Shown piece after piece: positions 4,986 to 17,147 of a DNA stretch of 64,000 bases; position 1 is the first letter of the stretch; every line of letters begins with the position of its first letter. The notes below the pieces were generated by a model. It had not been told where the DNA came from. It was given only the letters and a program-made list of their open reading frames with translations, and did not search any database. Both the position numbers and the translations under genes were made by a program. Source of the DNA: Pocillopora damicornis (Eukaryota); contig NW_020845387.1 of assembly GCF_003704095.1 (NCBI RefSeq), forward strand, positions 124,001-188,000. Direction: 5' to 3'.

Positions 4986-7900
4986 ATGTCTAACGAAGAG
5001 AAAGCAATCGATCTTATTACTCAGGCTGAGAAGAAAGTGAAATCGTCACAGGGTTTTTTGGGTGGATTATTTGGGTAAGTTTTAGTGAGTAACTGCCGAA
5101 TTCAGTTGCATCTAGACACATAATTTGACGATCTCAGGTAGAGATTTGAAGTTACATGTCAGCTGAACGGACGAAATTTTTCTCGGTTTTTCTAGGGGTA
5201 CTTCAAAGCTCGAAGAAGCCACGGAGATGTATATTAGTGCTGGCAACATGTTTAAAATGGCACAAAAATGGAGTGGTATGTACCTTGCCAGTTAATCAAA
5301 TGATTGATACAACTGTTACAGTTAATGAACGTAACTGAATAGAATTGATTGTAGATTTTTGAATGTATACCACGAGTGACAGTATATTTAGTCAACCTAC
5401 ACCATCAAGGGTGTGTAGTTATCCCTCCCCTCCCATGATCTGAATAATAAGGGGGTGGGATGAAGGCATTGCATGCTCTGTACAAAGCCTCAGTCAACAG
5501 TCAATTGCTCGTGAGAGTGGATGGAAAGTCCATTTATGGGGGCTTTTTTTCAACAGACACTTGCATGGTATGGTATGGTTTGTGAATGTTTTGGTGGAGT
5601 TGTCAAGTGGCTGATGGAACATAATAACAGTCACTGTCTAACAGTTAGAGTTAGTTGACCATCATTTCACTTTCTGTCCTCCATTGCCTGCCCATTACCT
5701 TAATAGCTGAATTACAAAAATATGTTAAAAACAGAAATTAACTAATAAAGTAGAAGGGAAAGAGACAGTATTGAATAACAACAAGAAAAACCATTACATT
5801 GACCTAATTTAAAATATTAAAGGTACAGTTACTGTTTATAAAATAGTCAGGAAAGATCAGGAGAAGTATTTTACTTTTTGTATAATTTCAGATGAATCTA
5901 TATAAGAGTCTTGTGAACCTAATATGTTGAATAAAATTTGTTTGAGTTTTCTTTTAAATGCATTTTTGGAAAGATTTCTTAATGCTTGAGGTATTGCATT
6001 CCACACTTTTACTCCTATTCGAGAGAAGGAATTCACTTGAACAGATAGCCTAGAAGGTTTGGTATAGAAGTCATTAGAGGCAGAAGAACGTGTATTGTAA
6101 GAATGAACTTTAGATATATCTTGAAATAGATCTTGAATATTGGATGGGGCTGTTCTGTTTCAAACGTCAAACATCAAATTAGCTATAGATTCATAATAAA
6201 CAAATTTTAGCATTAAGATATGAGTGTCAACAAATAAAGGAATTGCATGCTCATTATGATCAGAAAAGTAGATAAAGCAAAGAGCTCATTTCTGTAACTT
6301 TAGGAGCTTGTCAAGGTAAGATTTACAAGCCTGACCCCGTACTGTCAGACCGTATGTTAAGTAAGGAGCTATAAGAGCTTGGTATATATTTAAGAAGGTA
6401 TGTGCTGGCAGGTAGTGTTGTAATTTTACAATTAATCCTACAGTTCTTCTTGCTTTAATGATTATATGGTCAATATGGTGTTTCCAAAACAAATTTTTAT
6501 CAATTAAAATCCCGAGATATTTGTCATAATCTTTATGCTCCAGAGCCACCTTCTTGTTCTTGTTTGTTATCAAATATCACGATTTAAGGTTGATAAGAAA
6601 GTTTCCTTTGGGCAGGGCAAATTACTTTTTTTAATATTCAAGGTCAATTTGTTTGCAGTTAACCAATCATATACTTTGTTAAGTTCTTGATTTATTTAGA
6701 GTTCCAAAGATTTCAGATTTTTATCAGTAAAAAGGATATTTATATCCTCTAAAAAAAGGTAAAAACTAAGCTTATCTGATGATTCCTGTATGTCATTGAT
6801 ATATAGCAAAAAAAGCTGTGGGCCTAGAACAGAACCCTGAGGCACTCCTCAGGTAGAATCTAACCTTTCAGAAATATGAGGACGAATTTGAGTTGTTTGA
6901 GTTTTCCCTTGCAAGTAGGAAGAAAACCAGATATTTATACTGCCGCAAAAACCATAGTGATCTAACTTGTGCAAAAGAATTTCGTGATCTACAGTATCAA
7001 AAGCCTTTTTCAGGTCAATGAAAATCCCGGATGAGAATAAACAGTTGTTCATATTTGTCTGTATTGCATTCACAATATCTAGGATTGCATGCTGAGTAGA
7101 ATGTGCCTTGCGAAAGCCATATTGGGATGGAGTGAGCAGGTTCTTCTGTTCAATAAAAGACTCCATTCTTTTAAACACTATTTTTTCAAATATCCTGTTG
7201 AAATTAAAGAAGTAGAACAATTGGCCTATAATTGTTAATGTCAGTATTATCATCTTGTTTGAAAATTGGAATAATCTTTGCCATTGCTCAGAGGGATAAA
7301 CTCCAGTTGAAATAGATGTCTTTAGAATATCCGCCAGAATGCCACTTATAAGATTTGAAGAGCACTTTAATATCTGTGTTGGACACAAGTATAAGCCATG
7401 AGATTTATTATTTGGTATGTAAGAAATTTCTAGTCTAAATTCCTCTGGAGTAACTAGGTTAACAGCAAACAACGAATCAGTTGATTTGGTTCTCTTAAGA
7501 AAGAAACAAATTTTTCAATCATATACATGGAACAAGCCTTCTCACAACACTCATGATGTGGCGTAGGGTAATGATCCATTTCTGCTATGGTCAAAGGGTA
7601 TAATATTTCTAGTGAATCATTGACCAGCCAATTTGAAGCAGCCATGATTGATGATCAACCAGGTCTTGGATGATTTTGACATCAGTTTTGTGAGTGGTTT
7701 GCCTCTGTGACCAAAAGAAAAAATACTTTTAACTTAAAGTATGTTGATGTAGGGAAGGATTTGATGTCCTCTATAGCAAGTACTTGACAAAGGTGTGCTC
7801 TGCTTCTGAATTACACAACTTTTCAAAACTATTTAGAATTATTGTTTTTGTTTTTGTTTTTGCTTTTTAAACTAAACAGCTGCTGGGAAAGCATTTATGG

Positions 7901-11729: not shown

Positions 11730-12308
11730 AGTAGCATTTCCTTAACTTATTTAGATTTCTTACACAAGGAAACTGTAACAAATAAGGATACATAACATCT
11801 GAAAATCACATGGAAGGGCACAATAATAATTGTTGCCAAAAGAAAGCAAGAATAACTTGAAAGAGCTCTATTTTCTCTATTCAAACTCTCCTCTCCTACA
11901 TCATGAATATTATTATAAAATAACAGCGACACAGTTTGTTGTGCTTCACATAAAATTATTACAAATACAGCCTGCATAGTTGTATACAAACCCAGTTTAC
12001 CAGACTGTTTAGTATTAATGTGCCTTTGTGTGGAGGGTCTTTTTGTTTTGTAGTTGACATAAATTGTGTTCAAAATGTAGTTCCCCCTAAAATTCTTCTT
12101 GGACATAAAAATTACTCATGCTATCCTTACATTTACACTAATTGCAGCAATAACCCTACAAGTTGTTGTGAGTAAATTGCTGGTGGTCTTACTCTCCTTT
12201 TAGAAGGGAGGGGATGGTGGGGCTCAAAGAGTTGCAACCCTGGAGTAAATTGGTCCTTAAAATATTTCTCACCAATCCAAAAAATTATAATTGGTTTTCC
12301 TTTTAAGC

Positions 12309-12450
12309 TTGTCTTCCTCATCCTTCACAATGGTAGAGACTGCTTGAATTGATTTTCATTAACGTTTATCATCATGCAAAACCCGAATTCCAAAAAAGAG
12401 ACAAGATGTGCAGAAAGAGAAAAATGTCTTAGATATAATTTCTGGTGCCA
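12309..12450 (+). repeat. Direct repeat copy 1 (~140 bp)
   Basis: Near-identical to 16499-16639: one substitution (AACGTTTATC vs AACATTTATC) and one 1-bp indel near the right end. Confidence 0.95.
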
Positions 12451-12774
12451 AATTGAAGTTCAGTAGAAAAAAGAAAACTTCAATATTCTCCTTGCCTTCA
12501 GCACCCCAACACTGAGGGAATTTATTATTGTAATGTAAGTTGACATTGGAGGTGAAATGGGGGATGAAAGAGTTTCTCAAGGCAAAACCTGAAGCAGTAA
12601 TAATAAACAGATCGAGCGTTAGCACTGCACATTGACCTACTCTATTGATCAACAGAAGAAAAGTGATTTCCAGATAATTATTACTAGGACAGGATTTGGA
12701 ACGGGAGGGCGGGTGAAACAAAAGCGGAAAGGCACGCAACCAAAGCTGTTTGTGCGGCCAGGTACTTTCAAAAT

Positions 12775-12934
12775 CAGTGGCGGATCTAGGGAAGGGCCCC
12801 CCTTCCCCCTTATTTTGGGCGGAAAGAAGAAAAAGAATCGCCGAAGGGAGAAAAGCCGGCAGAGCAACCGACAAAAAAAGTCAACCCCCCCTCCACTTCC
12901 CCCCCTTTTAGCTCAAGGTCTTGATCCGCCACTG
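12775..12934. mobile_element. Short MITE with CAGTGGCGGATC terminal inverted repeats
   Basis: CAGTGGCGGATC at 12775 and GATCCGCCACTG ending at 12934; AAAAT on both flanks (possible TSD). Confidence 0.75.
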
Positions 12935-14215
12935 AAAATGGTGGCATTCGTTGGCGATTTTCGTAGCTTTTTAAGACAATTTTTCATTAGCCAGGTTACT
13001 CCCTGGAATCTCTAAACGCGGTAAGTAAATAATTACCGAGAAAATTTACAAGCGTGCATGGTTATCGCGGCTAGCGCTGTTGGCAAGAGCTGTTTTCCCT
13101 TTTTCCTGGTCTCTAGATTAGAACCTGCATGTCAGTCTTGAGTTGTTGACAACACTTTATTCCCCTGTTAGACTTCTGAAAGGCCCAGAAGCAGCACGTC
13201 TCTCCTGTTGGCGTGCCAGTTTGGTTTCGTCGAGGTGCGTTTTATAAACGTTACATGTAACCCCTCCCGGCTCCTTTTCGGCCGGTTTAGCACTTCCATC
13301 TTCCTTAGAGAGGTATTTCTTTTGAACTGCTGGGTCACTGGTCAGGGTAAGCCGGAACAACAATGACTATGGTCATATTCCCTTTTGATCTCCGCGAGTA
13401 AAACGATAAAAATGATTTTGGGAAAAAGAGAAATTCTACGTTAATGTGTGCGCCGGAAATAGCGCGATATAGAGATCCACTGCTGCTTAAAGGTTATTGC
13501 GGGCTCTTCGCTCTGAGGAAGAGCGAGGGATCCGTGGTGTGCCCGGCTTTAAATGAGTGGAAGGCTCTCTAAAAGTTACGAAGCGTTTTGCATTCTAAAT
13601 TAAAGTACCTAGGGACTCTTGAGAGTTAATGGAAAGATCGAGGATGGATAATTGGCGGGCAAATGAATAACCATCTTTTCTTCTCGTGAGTATAGAGGCT
13701 TGCTTCGTCGTTGATTTTTGTTGAACCAGGATTCGGCGCCCCCGGCCAATACTTATATCATGATAGGTGAGTGAGATGGTTTTCCTTTAGTGAAGTAACT
13801 TTGGAGGATACTGTTCATGTAATATAAGTGGAGAGTGCATACATAACAGTCTGATTCCAGTGCATGATGTACAGTTCATTTACATACACCATTCTGCGTG
13901 GCTGATGTTATCAGTAATCCAGATATTTAGCTTTGGTAGTTTGTGGTAGACAAGGATGTACAATAAAATTTGAAATTTGGATGATTGATACCGGTATGTG
14001 AATTCAACATCCAATTCGCCAGCATCAAGACATCACTCCAGTGTTATGCCTGTTTAATATGTCCCCTCCCATGGAGGTTTCAGTGGGGTTGGTGTTGGAG
14101 ACTTAGGTTTCTCCACTGAAATAAGGGAAATTACAAGCAGGGAACAATTTAAGTGGCACAGTCTACCACCCTGTTTCAGAAAACAAACCCAACAACACCA
14201 GACATCTCTCAACAT
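12935..14215 (+). ncRNA. Putative 5' region of a non-coding Pol II transcript with structured intronic RNA
   Basis: CpG island; donors G|GTAAGT (13021) and AG|GTGAGT (13767); many hairpins whose G-U pairs form on the + strand; no recognisable ORF. Confidence 0.4.
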
Positions 14216-16213
14216 GTTTATTTTAAGCTCTCATATAATAGTTTTCAGGAACATTAGTAATGTCCGAAAGAGGCTTTAAAAATTCTCTTTTTCCCTAAAC
14301 TACTCCCTATAAAGTAAAAGTCATCATAAAAGGGCCTTTAGTCTTGTTTCTATAATCTTTCTAACAAGACACCATTTACTTAAGTATTTCAGCAAAGGCT
14401 TCTATTAATGTTGCTGTAAAATGTTTGGAAGGGCTTTCACATTAAAATAGGTGTCCTTAGGCCACAACATGACTTAAATGAAATAAATTATATTTTCAAA
14501 TACCTATGATAGAAAATAATAATTGCTGTAAGTTATAATAGTTGCAATTCACTACATAATACACTAGCATTTTTACTAAGCCAAACTGCAGAATGACATA
14601 TATTTATACACCTAATTGCAAATATTTTAGAATTGTGATTGTCCTTCCCTTTTGGTTTTTTTGGCCTGCACCAAAACATGCATTGAATGCTGAACAATTT
14701 TAGACTGTGGATACCTCCTAAATATGAGTACCTGCAAAATTGACAGGTCCTTGGTGTCATAAATTTACCCAAGAAATACTAGCAAATAATAAAGGGAAAG
14801 TAAACTAAATTTTGACCAGTAATTTGGAGGGAGGTTTCCTAAAACATATGCACATATTATTATTTGGAATGGTCAAAGAAACATAGTAACTTTAAAAAGA
14901 GTAATTATGATAATAATATTCATACCTATGGCAAGCCTTACCTTCTCATTCACACTCTTTTGCAACTATTAGATAAGTTGTTTGTAAAATTTGAAATAAA
15001 CTCACATAAGAAATAGCTGTATCTCACTTATTTTCCATCATTAGCTTGCTATGGCCAGTTACTAATAGTCAAGAGGCATCCAAAGGCTCATTGTAAATTC
15101 AAAAGTTATTTAGGAAGGAAACATCTTACTTTATGGTACAAAAATTCCTGCAGCTATTTGGCATAAATATTATCAATTTCAAGAGTTCTTCCTAATAATG
15201 CTTTCCATCATCCCTTGAAAACAGTACATCACGATAAATTGTTGTCCATAGTAACAATCCAGAAACCAATTGAAAATTATAGGATTAATCAAATCTCCCC
15301 AAACTGAATTATCTTGCATCAGGCATGAAGATCTCTAGTGAACCAGCAGTAAGTGCAGTCCTGATAGATTTTCAGGCCTTATCTTCTCTGCATAATTAAC
15401 ATTTTAGTAGGAATCATAAGACTGACTCTTTTAAAGACAAATTCCTTACAGTGCTGAATGCTGCTGTAAAGGAGATGGAAGGAACTGATTATTTCATTTA
15501 TTCTTATCATTTCTGACTGATCTGGTTCATTCTCTGTGTGTTACTTGGACACCTCAAGGGATACACTGTCTATCATTTTGTTTGTGGAAACTATTTGTTC
15601 TTTGGTCATTATAACATAAATACTATTTAGACCTCTGACTACTTCTGTGTAAATACAAAACATTGACAATTAAATCATTTAGGTTTTCTTGTAGAGTTAC
15701 TCATTGTTATGAAATGGTGTTTTATGAATGATAACTTGAGAACTTTTCTGTGCTTGCATCTGCTAAGGTTATTTGGATTATGTAGAAAAACAAACCAAAG
15801 ACAGCAGCTGGATACTGTCATTATTAGGTCAGAACTATTGTGAGCATGTCAAAATTAATAAAGCTTTAAGCCTGCAAAGAAACAGTTGCTGTAATTTATC
15901 ACCAACTTTGATGTATTGATTGACTATTCATTCCACATTATGCTTGATAAGTATTGCAGCTATGCTACCATATAGGTTGACAAAATTTTATATACAACCT
16001 AGGACCTGAGAATTATCATTATTAATTGAGAAGTTTCTTGAATCTGAAATCTCTTAAATTTTATTTCAGGTTTGCTATTCATACTCTATAGGAATGCTTG
16101 GGGCCTGCCCTATTTTACATTGAAAACATTTTTCTTCATTATAAAATACCATGCCTCTGAGCATAAAATACTGATACCTGATAACACCATAAATGCCAAA
16201 CTATGTTGAATGT

Positions 16214-16215
<2 letters not shown>

Positions 16216-16250
<35 letters not shown>

Positions 16251-16266
16251 TAATAGTAATAGTAAT
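16216..16266. repeat. (AAT)n microsatellite
   Basis: Tandem AAT units with a few variants. Confidence 0.9.
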
Positions 16267-16498
16267 GATCATTATTATCATTATAATTTCAATTATTCAT
16301 GACAAATATTATTTCAAGAAGTTGAAAAGGCTAAAATAATAAATAAAAATAAAGTATTTAGGTAGCTGATGTTATAAACTGAAAATTTTGTATAAATTAG
16401 TACCTCACTGCACAGTCACTATCACATCACTGTTTGCCAGGCTGTGAAGGAAGATACATGTAACAGGCATACAATAAGACAAGGTAACATCTCAACAT

Positions 16499-16639
16499 TT
16501 GTCTTCCTCATCCTTCACAATGGTAGAGACTGCTTGAATTGATTTTCATTAACATTTATCATCATGCAAAACCCGAATTCCAAAAAAGAGACAAGATGTG
16601 CAGAAAGAGAAAAATGTCTTAGATATAATTTCTGGGCCA
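16499..16639 (+). repeat. Direct repeat copy 2 (~140 bp)
   Basis: Near-identical to 12309-12450. Confidence 0.95.
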
Positions 16640-17147
16640 AGTAAGAGTTTGACACAGAGACTGGAAAACTAAAATACCCTAGGCCAGATACGAAAAGTTG
16701 CATATTCGTGTTACAGCGTTCAAAAAGGGTGTACAGGAAATTGCTTTTTCTGTCAATATCTGGGTGATTGTTATTATTTATCATGTTCCTTACCCACTAT
16801 ACTTATAATAAATGGCGAGAAGAATGTTATTCTATTGAGGCTAACCAGGATATGTAATAATATGGTGTTCCTTATCTTGAGAGTTATCTCTAAAGTCTTA
16901 GGGCATTGAATATGACATATATTTAGGCGTGGTGCTCATTCTTTGGTTTGCATGATTGATATCATTGTTAGCCATTATGGCTTGTAATAATTCAGAAATA
17001 TATGTAGCTATCTCTAAAATTGCATTTTGAAAATACAAACTGATACTTGTATCAAAGATATTTGAGAACCTTTAATTATTATAAGATCTTCCTTACTGCT
17101 GTTGTTAGTTGACACAGAGAAAGCACTTTTCCTTAATTTGGAAAAAG

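What the first reader, a model, noticed from the sequence alone, without database searches (positions are those of the whole stretch)
12935..14215. Orphan CpG-island transcription unit with extensive plus-strand RNA structure between NAPA and SLC8A
Seen: a CpG-rich island (about 12600-13760) not explained by any coding gene; AAAATGGTGG start-like motif; strong donors at 13021 and 13767; then CpG depletion downstream, as in the neighbouring gene bodies. Hairpins with G-U pairs on the + strand: CTTCTG/CAGAAG; GCACGTC/GGCGTGC; CCGGCT/GGCCGG; a ~100-nt rod at 13471-13570 (TCCACT/AGTGGA, TTAAAG/CTTTAA, ATTGCGGG/TCCGTGGT, TCTTCGCTCT/AGAGCGAGGG, apical TGAG); long-range TTTTGATCT/AGATCGAGG; ACTGTT-ATGTA/TACAT-AACAGT; and TTTCAGTGG/CCACTGAAA whose loop TGGTGTTG can pair with downstream CAACACCA (possible pseudoknot). 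Inference: an unannotated lncRNA or sno/scaRNA host gene convergent with the NCX 3' end. It matches no ncRNA family I recognise.
Basis: partly seen in the sequence, partly recalled or inferred. Interest (0 to 1): 0.7.

Follow-up and report, generated by a model that had tools for sequence, protein, structure and literature searches.

The report
Likely snoRNA-host-type promoter between convergent genes
In the 1.6-kb gap between the tail ends of two coral genes sits a small transposon and a likely ribosome-gene-type start signal that would drive a short non-coding RNA of the snoRNA-host kind, while the hairpins that first drew attention are no more than chance gives.

Summary
The quoted motifs are all present, but most mean something else. 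The 'island' is the gap between the NAPA 3' end (about 12625) and the NCX poly(A) site (14205). Its CpG level is the genome default: 69% of 1.66 Mb sampled is equally CpG-rich. 12775-12934 is a MITE, and the 'start motif' begins with its 5-bp target-site copy. Stem counts do not exceed shuffles, the rod's best stem is broken without compensation in related samples, and the 'pseudoknot' partner is the antisense of NCX's downstream poly(A) element.

No other of 1851 background TCT cores has all three features. Two motifs are shared with the promoter of a real snoRNA cluster in this genome. No ORF or Pfam match exists.

Against it: six RNA runs show only low, unspliced cover and no junction, no snoRNA passes box or guide tests, an RP-trained matrix is not significant, and no homologue was found in four other animal lineages. 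Verdict: likely a small TOP-type non-coding unit with unproven cargo (0.55); otherwise an ordinary termination gap.

The parts
12602..12627 (+). Distal poly(A) signal and 3' end of NAPA (left wall of the gap)
   Evidence: AATAAA at 12602; RNA contigs of X1 and X9 end at 12627 and 12623; PF14938 in a NAPA exon
12775..12934 (.). 160-bp MITE with 12-bp terminal inverted repeats and a 5-bp target-site duplication (12770-12774, 12935-12939)
   Evidence: 39 other genomic hits among 40 matches scored, a lower bound; 4 full copies by pattern; perfect 5-bp duplication in 3 of those 4, ours included. An hAT-type label is recalled, not confirmed
13021..13026 (+). Strong donor-like site upstream of the likely start; no use seen
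   Evidence: Score 6.1; bridged unspliced by X6 record 17 and X9 record 24
13243..13248 (+). TATA box at -31 from the inferred start
   Evidence: Sequence; TATA plus TCT spacing found 4 times in 3.33 M strand-bases, ours included
13272..13285 (+). TCT/5'TOP-type initiator, inferred +1 at C13274
   Evidence: +1..+7 fits the gas5 initiator in Table 3 of PMC554972; 11-nt identity with the RPL29 start of this genome; no cap data
13274..13346 (+). Predicted pyrimidine-rich first exon (73 nt) with a YY1-like CCATCTT at 13296, ending at donor 13347
   Evidence: 10-mer 13295-13304 and upstream 9-mer 13256-13264 shared with the promoter of the snoRNA cluster L209; donor score 5.4; junction not observed
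13471..13570 (+). Rod hairpin in predicted intron 1; the only locally stable fold, probably not under selection
   Evidence: z -2.8; G13510C in X5, X6 and X9, partner C13524 unchanged in X5 and X6; energy -41.0 to -35.1 kcal/mol with the two variants; no ACA between 13360 and the 13840s
13696..13766 (+). Predicted exon 2 (acceptor 13695, donor 13767)
   Evidence: Donor score 6.55; the acceptor fails the scan; 13767 is bridged unspliced in X5, X6 and X9
13790..13905 (+). Degenerate C/D-like layout (C 13790 with 2 mismatches, D' 13851, C' 13864, D 13902)
   Evidence: snR75 21.2 bits against a cut-off of 40; the layout occurs in 93 of 2418 background strands; guides at null level; 3-nt indel, 47-nt duplication and G13898T in relatives
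13962..13967 (+). AATAAA, predicted 3' end signal of the + strand unit (cleavage near 13985)
   Evidence: Sequence; the X5 contig 13359-13968 stops just behind it; no poly(A) tail seen
14081..14188 (+). Weak H/ACA-like candidate (H 14119, ACA 14183), reachable only through donor 13994
   Evidence: One pocket pairs 4+4 with a conserved SSU uridine (position 320 of the own SSU copy); 12 of 400 random pockets do as well; fold z +0.29; such layouts occur 0-5 times per 4-kb strand
14176..14222 (-). NCX (SLC8A) poly(A) signal (14222-14217), cleavage at 14203-14215 and GU-rich downstream element (right wall of the gap)
   Evidence: 25-nt poly(A) tail at 14205 in X8; X1 and X7 contigs end at 14203 and 14215; unspliced 3-kb 3' UTR from 17530; PF01699

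Best explanation
The CpG-rich gap between the NAPA and NCX poly(A) sites holds a MITE and a TATA-TCT-donor motif set that is likely a real 5'TOP promoter, predicted to drive a short non-coding RNA of the snoRNA-host (GAS5/U17HG) kind. Polymerase II would start at C13274, splice a 73-nt pyrimidine-rich exon at 13347 and a second exon at 13767, and end at the AATAAA at 13962. That would give a spliced RNA of about 190-215 nt that ordinary RNA-seq would under-sample, so that mainly unspliced precursor is seen. Its purpose would be to release intron RNAs. The best cargo candidates are the C/D-like stretch 13790-13905 and, by read-on through donor 13994, the H/ACA-like stretch 14081-14188; neither passes its tests, so the cargo is an orphan or decaying. 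Shown: the flanking 3' ends, the MITE, the motifs and their rarity, the lack of coding potential, low unspliced RNA. Inferred: start site, strand of the RNA, splicing, cargo.
For: TATA at -31 plus TCT core: 3 other sites in 3.33 M strand-bases. TATA, YY1-like site and donor together: 0 of 1851 background TCT cores have all three and 1 has two; 0 of 398 GC-matched cores have two; the gap holds only 5 TCT cores. 2 of 4 reference TOP starts of this genome have two of the three features. The best local alignment of the whole island to the RPL29 5' region falls on this start (score 36, maximum of 60 shuffles 35). A 9-mer upstream and a 10-mer downstream are shared with the promoter of a real nine-snoRNA cluster; 0 of 1851 background cores match L209 as well. 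8 of 9 mammalian non-rp TOP genes, gas5 and U17HG among them, have a strong TATA box (PMC554972 section 10). CpG loss begins about 500 nt after 13274, within the 400-1000 nt seen for the four references, and 440 nt outside the NCX mRNA. Base skew points to + (10 of 769 deep intergenic windows as strong). X5 and X9 cover the island at 3-11x with no cover of the flanking introns (arithmetic); the X5 contig spans 13359-13968.
Against: No junction in the gap in 6 RNA runs (X1, X5, X6, X9; X1, X7, X8) of 18 RNA or RNA? rows listed. X7 and X8 have no island cover at NCX depths of 203 and 26, and X1 has 153 nt at 3.9x beside 259x. 13767 is read through in 3 of 6 runs. X9 and X6 cover the part upstream of 13274 as deeply as the part downstream, which fits read-through. 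A matrix trained only on three RP starts is not significant (0.31 expected hits per gap), and a 4-mer promoter classifier (AUC 0.8) scores the island below 72-92% of true 5' edges. The motif features were chosen after looking, and the reference starts are inferred without cap data. The one other genome-wide match to the tight pattern looks like chance. Island divergence is not lower than the NCX UTR: 12/650 against 41/3445, 17/759 against 37/3365, 14/721 against 41/3215. Real C/D RNAs here have C boxes with 0-1 mismatches (9 of 9); the candidate has 2.
Confidence: 0.55

Rival explanations
1. An ordinary unmethylated termination gap: both polymerases run on past their poly(A) sites, giving low unspliced RNA, and the promoter-like motifs are a chance cluster in GC-rich DNA.
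For: CpG-rich is the default state (69%; passages of 10.1101/2021.03.29.437539 and PMC8857917). Two other CpG-rich convergent gaps occur among 31 short islands. NCX contigs run past 14205 to 13905 and 13975 in X5 and X6. Termination lies hundreds to thousands of bases past the mRNA end (abstract of PMC11754735). No junction, no conservation and no homologue. The unbiased matrix and classifier are negative.
Against: It needs TATA, TCT, a YY1-like site, a donor and two motifs shared with a real host promoter to coincide (0 of 1851). The island has the highest GC of 31 short islands, MITE included. NAPA's CpG loss stops at its last poly(A) site, whereas NCX's would have to run 440 nt further.
Confidence: 0.27
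2. A relic: the promoter and first exons of a snoRNA host gene that has lost its guides and is no longer transcribed on its own; the RNA seen is read-through.
For: Promoter grammar is intact while the cargo is degenerate. The weak snR75 match has both guides in register but mismatched. Indels and a duplication fall inside the C/D-like stretch. The working U15-type RNA lies elsewhere (L209).
Against: No detectable likeness to the L209 U15 or its host beyond short promoter motifs. Nothing similar lies at the same place in other lineages. The X5 contig fits a unit from about 13300 to 13985.
Confidence: 0.12
3. One reading: a unit that starts at about 12935, splices at 13021 and is extensively structured, with a pseudoknot near 14090-14200.
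For: Donors at 13021 and 13235 are followed by strong acceptors at 13116, 13171 and 13308; X9 and X6 have low cover upstream of 13274.
Against: The start motif is a target-site copy and not the enriched form; both donors are read through; structure is at chance level; the pseudoknot partner is the antisense of NCX's 3' signal.
Confidence: 0.04

Closest known systems
Non-coding 5'TOP snoRNA host genes (gas5, U17HG/SNHG3, UHG/SNHG1)
   Same: TATA plus polypyrimidine initiator (gas5 initiator fits at +1..+7; PMC554972), short first exon, several donors, no ORF. Such hosts use YC initiation and some are degraded by NMD (passages of PMC6954239).
   Different: No intact snoRNA shown, no spliced RNA seen, very low abundance, squeezed into 1.6 kb between two 3' ends.
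The polycistronic snoRNA cluster of this genome (L209-L211: U15-, U52-, snoR1-, snoR38-, SNORD12- and U14-like RNAs)
   Same: TCT-like core flanked by the same 9-mer and 10-mer; CpG-rich 5' end followed by CpG loss.
   Different: Its snoRNAs score 33-53 bits, have near-perfect C boxes, and the U15 and U52 guides hit conserved rRNA sites; the window candidates do not.
Ribosomal-protein promoters of this genome (RPL37, RPL29, RPS26)
   Same: Pyrimidine initiator, often followed by GGCC, TATA-like box at about -26 to -31 in two of three, donor within 100 nt.
   Different: They lead into coding exons; the window unit has no ORF over 42 codons in any splice form tried.
Non-autonomous DNA transposon (MITE) with a 5-bp target-site duplication
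   Same: Short, terminal inverted repeats, multicopy, 5-bp duplication.
   Different: Covers only 12775-12934; the rest of the island is single-copy by the searches run. Superfamily not determined.

Membership tests
5'TOP non-coding snoRNA host gene | Pyrimidine (TCT) initiator with C at +1, usually with TATA | tested here: inconclusive
   Motifs present and rare, but the start was not mapped and the RP-trained matrix is not significant
5'TOP non-coding snoRNA host gene | No protein-coding ORF | tested here: met
   No Pfam match; longest ORF over splice forms 42 codons
5'TOP non-coding snoRNA host gene | Spliced transcript | tested here: inconclusive
   No joint in 6 RNA runs; 13767 read through in 3. 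Contigs cannot show absence, and a 200-nt product could be missed; no contig bridges 13347 by 31 nt on both sides
5'TOP non-coding snoRNA host gene | Intact snoRNA in an intron | tested here: inconclusive
   No Rfam match at cut-off; C/D candidate fails, H/ACA candidate weak (rows below)
Box C/D snoRNA (13790-13905) | C box RUGAUGA and D box CUGA with terminal stem | tested here: not met
   C box has 2 mismatches against 0-1 in 9 of 9 real ones; no terminal stem by inspection
Box C/D snoRNA (13790-13905) | Guide of 10 nt or more to a conserved rRNA site | tested here: not met
   Best duplexes 9-10 nt at non-homologous sites, null 8-10; targets were partial own rDNA plus rDNA of unrelated eukaryotes
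Box C/D scaRNA or snRNA-guiding snoRNA | Guide to a spliceosomal snRNA | not testable with these tools
   The U2 search of the own genome found nothing and its control did not ring; no snRNA was in hand
Box H/ACA snoRNA (14081-14188) | Hairpin-H-hairpin-ACA with pockets 14-16 nt from the boxes | tested here: inconclusive
   Layout present but as common in control DNA; the pocketed fold of hairpin 1 (-5.7) is less stable than its MFE (-10.8)
Box H/ACA snoRNA (14081-14188) | Bipartite guide to a conserved uridine | tested here: inconclusive
   4+4 bp to a conserved SSU site; 12 of 400 random pockets reach 8 or more; 9 configurations scored for the three H/ACA boxes tried
H/ACA scaRNA (rod with UGAG) | CAB hairpin within an H...ACA frame | tested here: not met
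   UGAG is at the rod tip, but no ACA follows until the 13840s and the scan found no H/ACA frame around the rod
Animal telomerase RNA | Template covering more than one TTAGGG repeat, with pseudoknot, CR4/5 and H/ACA domains (passages of PMC8480181) | tested here: not met
   Longest template match 6 nt on +, under 6 on -
snR75/SNORD15 (U15) clan | Rfam score at cut-off and intact guides | tested here: not met
   21.2 bits against 40; a better U15 with intact guides lies at L209
MITE | Terminal inverted repeats, target-site duplication, multiple copies, no ORF | tested here: met

The most novel reading that the evidence does not exclude
A TOP promoter drives a host whose first intron (13347-13695) releases a roughly 300-nt RNA without C/D or H/ACA boxes, built around the UGAG-tipped rod (or a pre-miRNA-like 53-nt hairpin at 13492-13544): a new intron-encoded RNA type under ribosome-biogenesis control, lying antisense to the 3' end of the sodium/calcium exchanger.
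Probability: 0.05. Interest if true: 0.65.

Novelty: new member of a known kind. Interest (0 to 1): 0.3.

Why it matters
If real, it is one more non-coding TOP/snoRNA-host gene. It would show that the TATA-TCT-YY1 grammar of vertebrate TOP genes marks non-coding hosts in a coral, and it gives a cheap way to find such genes. The general lesson is negative and useful for this scan: in coral genomes a CpG-rich patch between methylated genes is the default state, and lists of short G-U stems carry no weight without a shuffle control.

Tried and rejected
Rfam at cut-off over the window and at E<=10 over the region: only sub-threshold hits. Paralogue searches without the MITE: self only; sensitive blastn against 0.86 and 1.66 Mb of the genome: nothing of substance.

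Homologue search: 24 NAPA loci from metagenomes. Five had 1.6-3.1 kb behind the stop, from four lineages (L023 and L024 are 99.9% alike). None resembles the island and none holds the TATA/TCT pattern. Only L028 keeps NCX opposite, with 2.05 kb between the stops. L020 may be too short to reach the matching place.

Parts without RNA cover (most of the island in X1, X7, X8) are not proof of silence. X6's island cover (2.4-3.6x) is below its intron cover (5.9x) and was not counted as evidence. The X9 contig starting exactly at 14227, the G of a + strand acceptor, may be a hidden splice branch or chance; it could not be followed.

U17/snR30, U3, U4atac, U7, SL RNA, 7SK and RNase P/MRP were considered from recalled motifs and dropped: flanking stems, boxes or ACA are missing, and Rfam gives no hit. 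A recalled link between the SSU uridine and a known yeast pseudouridine could not be checked. Three rod- and island-derived motifs were not found in the one supplement of PMC13343488 that is held, nor one motif in the paper library. A viral-contig scan for rDNA found nothing. Own-genome U2 and snR75 searches were too lossy to use. Earlier findings of the scan: none in four look-ups. No structure or complex prediction was run, as there is no protein.

Full report
Setting. The window is G000:C2022:124001-188000. NAPA lies on + and a sodium/calcium exchanger (NCX, SLC8A) on -. RNA contigs place NAPA's farthest 3' end at 12623-12627, behind AATAAA 12602, and show NCX's last exon running unspliced from 17530 to 14203-14227. 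A 25-nt poly(A) tail sits at 14205. The finding therefore covers most of the 1.58-kb gap between two convergent 3' ends. Run X21 spans 12940-14330 in one piece with 4 substitutions and one 3-nt insertion, so the assembly is sound there.

CpG island. The segment 12613-13746 is CpG-rich against its flanks. In 1.66 Mb taken from eight stretches of seven contigs, 69% is equally CpG-rich. This fits passages stating that invertebrate genomes are mostly unmethylated with methylated gene bodies (10.1101/2021.03.29.437539; PMC8857917). What is unusual is GC 0.448 (80 of 2217 CpG-rich windows) and four strong + donors (4 of 2217; none has both).

MITE. 12775-12934 has terminal inverted repeats and 39 other hits among the 40 matches scored. 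A perfect 5-bp duplication flanks 3 of 4 full copies. The right copy is the first half of the 'start-like' AAAATGGTGG. At inferred gene 5' edges the CG form of this motif is enriched (14 of 60) and the TG form is not (0 of 60). The rest of the island returned only itself.

Structure. Every quoted stem exists, but stems of 6-10 bp are no more frequent than in 40 shuffles, and 13021-13766 and 13347-13695 fold no better than shuffles (z +1.58 and +0.75). The rod is the best fold (z -2.8 at hand-picked ends), but control DNA has stronger windows (10 of 286 at z <= -3). G13510C appears in three studies. In X5 and X6 all differences on the covering contigs are listed and the partner C13524 is unchanged; X9 has one unlisted difference. 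The proposed pseudoknot partner is the antisense of the GU-rich element below NCX's cleavage site (recalled consensus; position).

Conservation. Against related samples the island is as divergent as the NCX UTR or more so: 1.8, 2.2 and 1.9% against 1.2, 1.1 and 1.3% (p 0.18, 0.02, 0.16). Low-depth contigs may add errors. Behind NAPA in four other lineages nothing aligns above shuffles except one marginal score (L028, 38 against a maximum of 35.5 in 20 shuffles).

RNA. Of 23 runs listed, 18 are RNA or guessed RNA; I laid six of these and one unlabelled run. No joint falls in the gap. 13021 is read through in X6 and X9, 13767 in X5, X6 and X9. Cover is 0 in X7 and X8, 153 nt in X1, 3-4.7x over 12794-13867 in X9 (flanks 162-214x) and 11x over 13359-13968 in X5. 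X5 and X9 have no cover of the flanking introns, so their signal is likely RNA (arithmetic). Contigs give no strand. Three studies have contigs starting at 13340-13359, a weak hint of a boundary that fits either a + start or a - end. One search hid 18 pieces, 8 loose ends and 61 differences.

The promoter. TATAAA at 13243 lies 31 nt before a TCT-type core at C13274. This pair occurs 3 other times in 3.33 M strand-bases (15 with a looser pattern). To calibrate I fetched three ribosomal-protein genes and a true snoRNA cluster found through a U15 guide pattern. The window start shares 11 nt with the RPL29 start, a downstream 9-mer with RPL37, and a 9-mer plus a 10-mer with the cluster's promoter. 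Among 1851 background TCT cores none has TATA, YY1-like site and donor together, and none matches the cluster as well; one scores higher on the best-of-four measure. Section 10 of PMC554972 gives TATA in 8 of 9 non-rp TOP genes and a gas5 initiator that fits ours at +1..+7. Passages of PMC6954239 tie such initiators to snoRNA hosts and NMD, and passages of PMC6389100 give TCT as the usual RP initiator, lost in one chordate. These features were picked after looking. The unbiased tests are weak or negative: the RP-trained matrix expects 0.31 equal hits per gap, the 4-mer classifier does not rank the island as a promoter, and the only other genome-wide match to the tight pattern looks like chance.

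Cargo. The C/D-like stretch has a D'-C'-D layout found in 93 of 2418 background strands, a C box worse than 9 of 9 real ones, and guides at null level, while the real U15 and U52 guides hit conserved sites. It carries a 3-nt indel, a 47-nt duplication and a guide change in relatives. The H/ACA-like stretch has one 4+4 pocket to a conserved SSU uridine (12 of 400 random pockets do as well) and lies beyond the AATAAA at 13962. Intron 1 has no H/ACA or C/D frame. Telomerase RNA is excluded by the lack of a template (passages of PMC8480181). The rRNA targets were partial own copies, one visibly degenerate, and rDNA of unrelated eukaryotes; snRNAs were not available.

Verdict. The structure claim fails. 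It works like a GAS5/U17HG-type host, but membership is not shown. Thousands of poorly shared coral lncRNAs are already catalogued (passages of PMC13343488), so one more is of modest interest. I make no claim that the locus is unpublished: searches were seen as listings only and were not aimed at proving absence. PMC11754735 was seen as abstract and outline.

Noticed in passing
G000:C3167, about 286000-291400 (L209-L211): A polycistronic snoRNA cluster on +: U15-, U52-, snoR1-, snoR38-, two SNORD12- and three U14-like RNAs (33-53 bits) behind a TCT-like start. No Pfam match in the first 2.2 kb, so possibly a non-coding UHG-type host.
   Followed up: partly
window 12309-12445 and 16499-16635: A 137-nt stretch is duplicated at 99% identity. 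RNA contigs of X1, X6 and X9 lack the copy at 12311-12442, so it is likely an assembly artefact or a private insertion in the NAPA 3' UTR.
   Followed up: partly
window 11731-12627: NAPA appears to use several 3' ends: X1 depth falls from 606 to 73 to 36 at about 11940 and 12290.
   Followed up: no
window 14205-17147: NCX has an unspliced 3' UTR of about 2.9 kb, which explains the CpG-poor DNA right of the finding.
   Followed up: yes
L028:1-2839: A distant relative keeps NAPA and NCX tail to tail in one contig with NAPA exons joined and 2.05 kb between the stops, so the arrangement is old and the 3' UTRs may overlap there.
   Followed up: partly
window 13812-13851: Run X5 carries a 47-nt tandem duplication here, and X5, X9 and X21 have 3 extra bases at 13850.
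   Followed up: partly
L251, first intron of RPS26 (about 2350-2270 on -): C- and D-box-like motifs in the RPS26 intron; no Rfam hit at E<=0.5.
   Followed up: no
window 5857-7514: Broken reverse-transcriptase-like frames on - inside a NAPA intron, a LINE-like remnant judged from the translation.
   Followed up: no
L012 (G000:C3123:14998-15959): The best LSU rRNA match in the assembly is a degenerate partial copy; no intact rDNA unit was returned.
   Followed up: no
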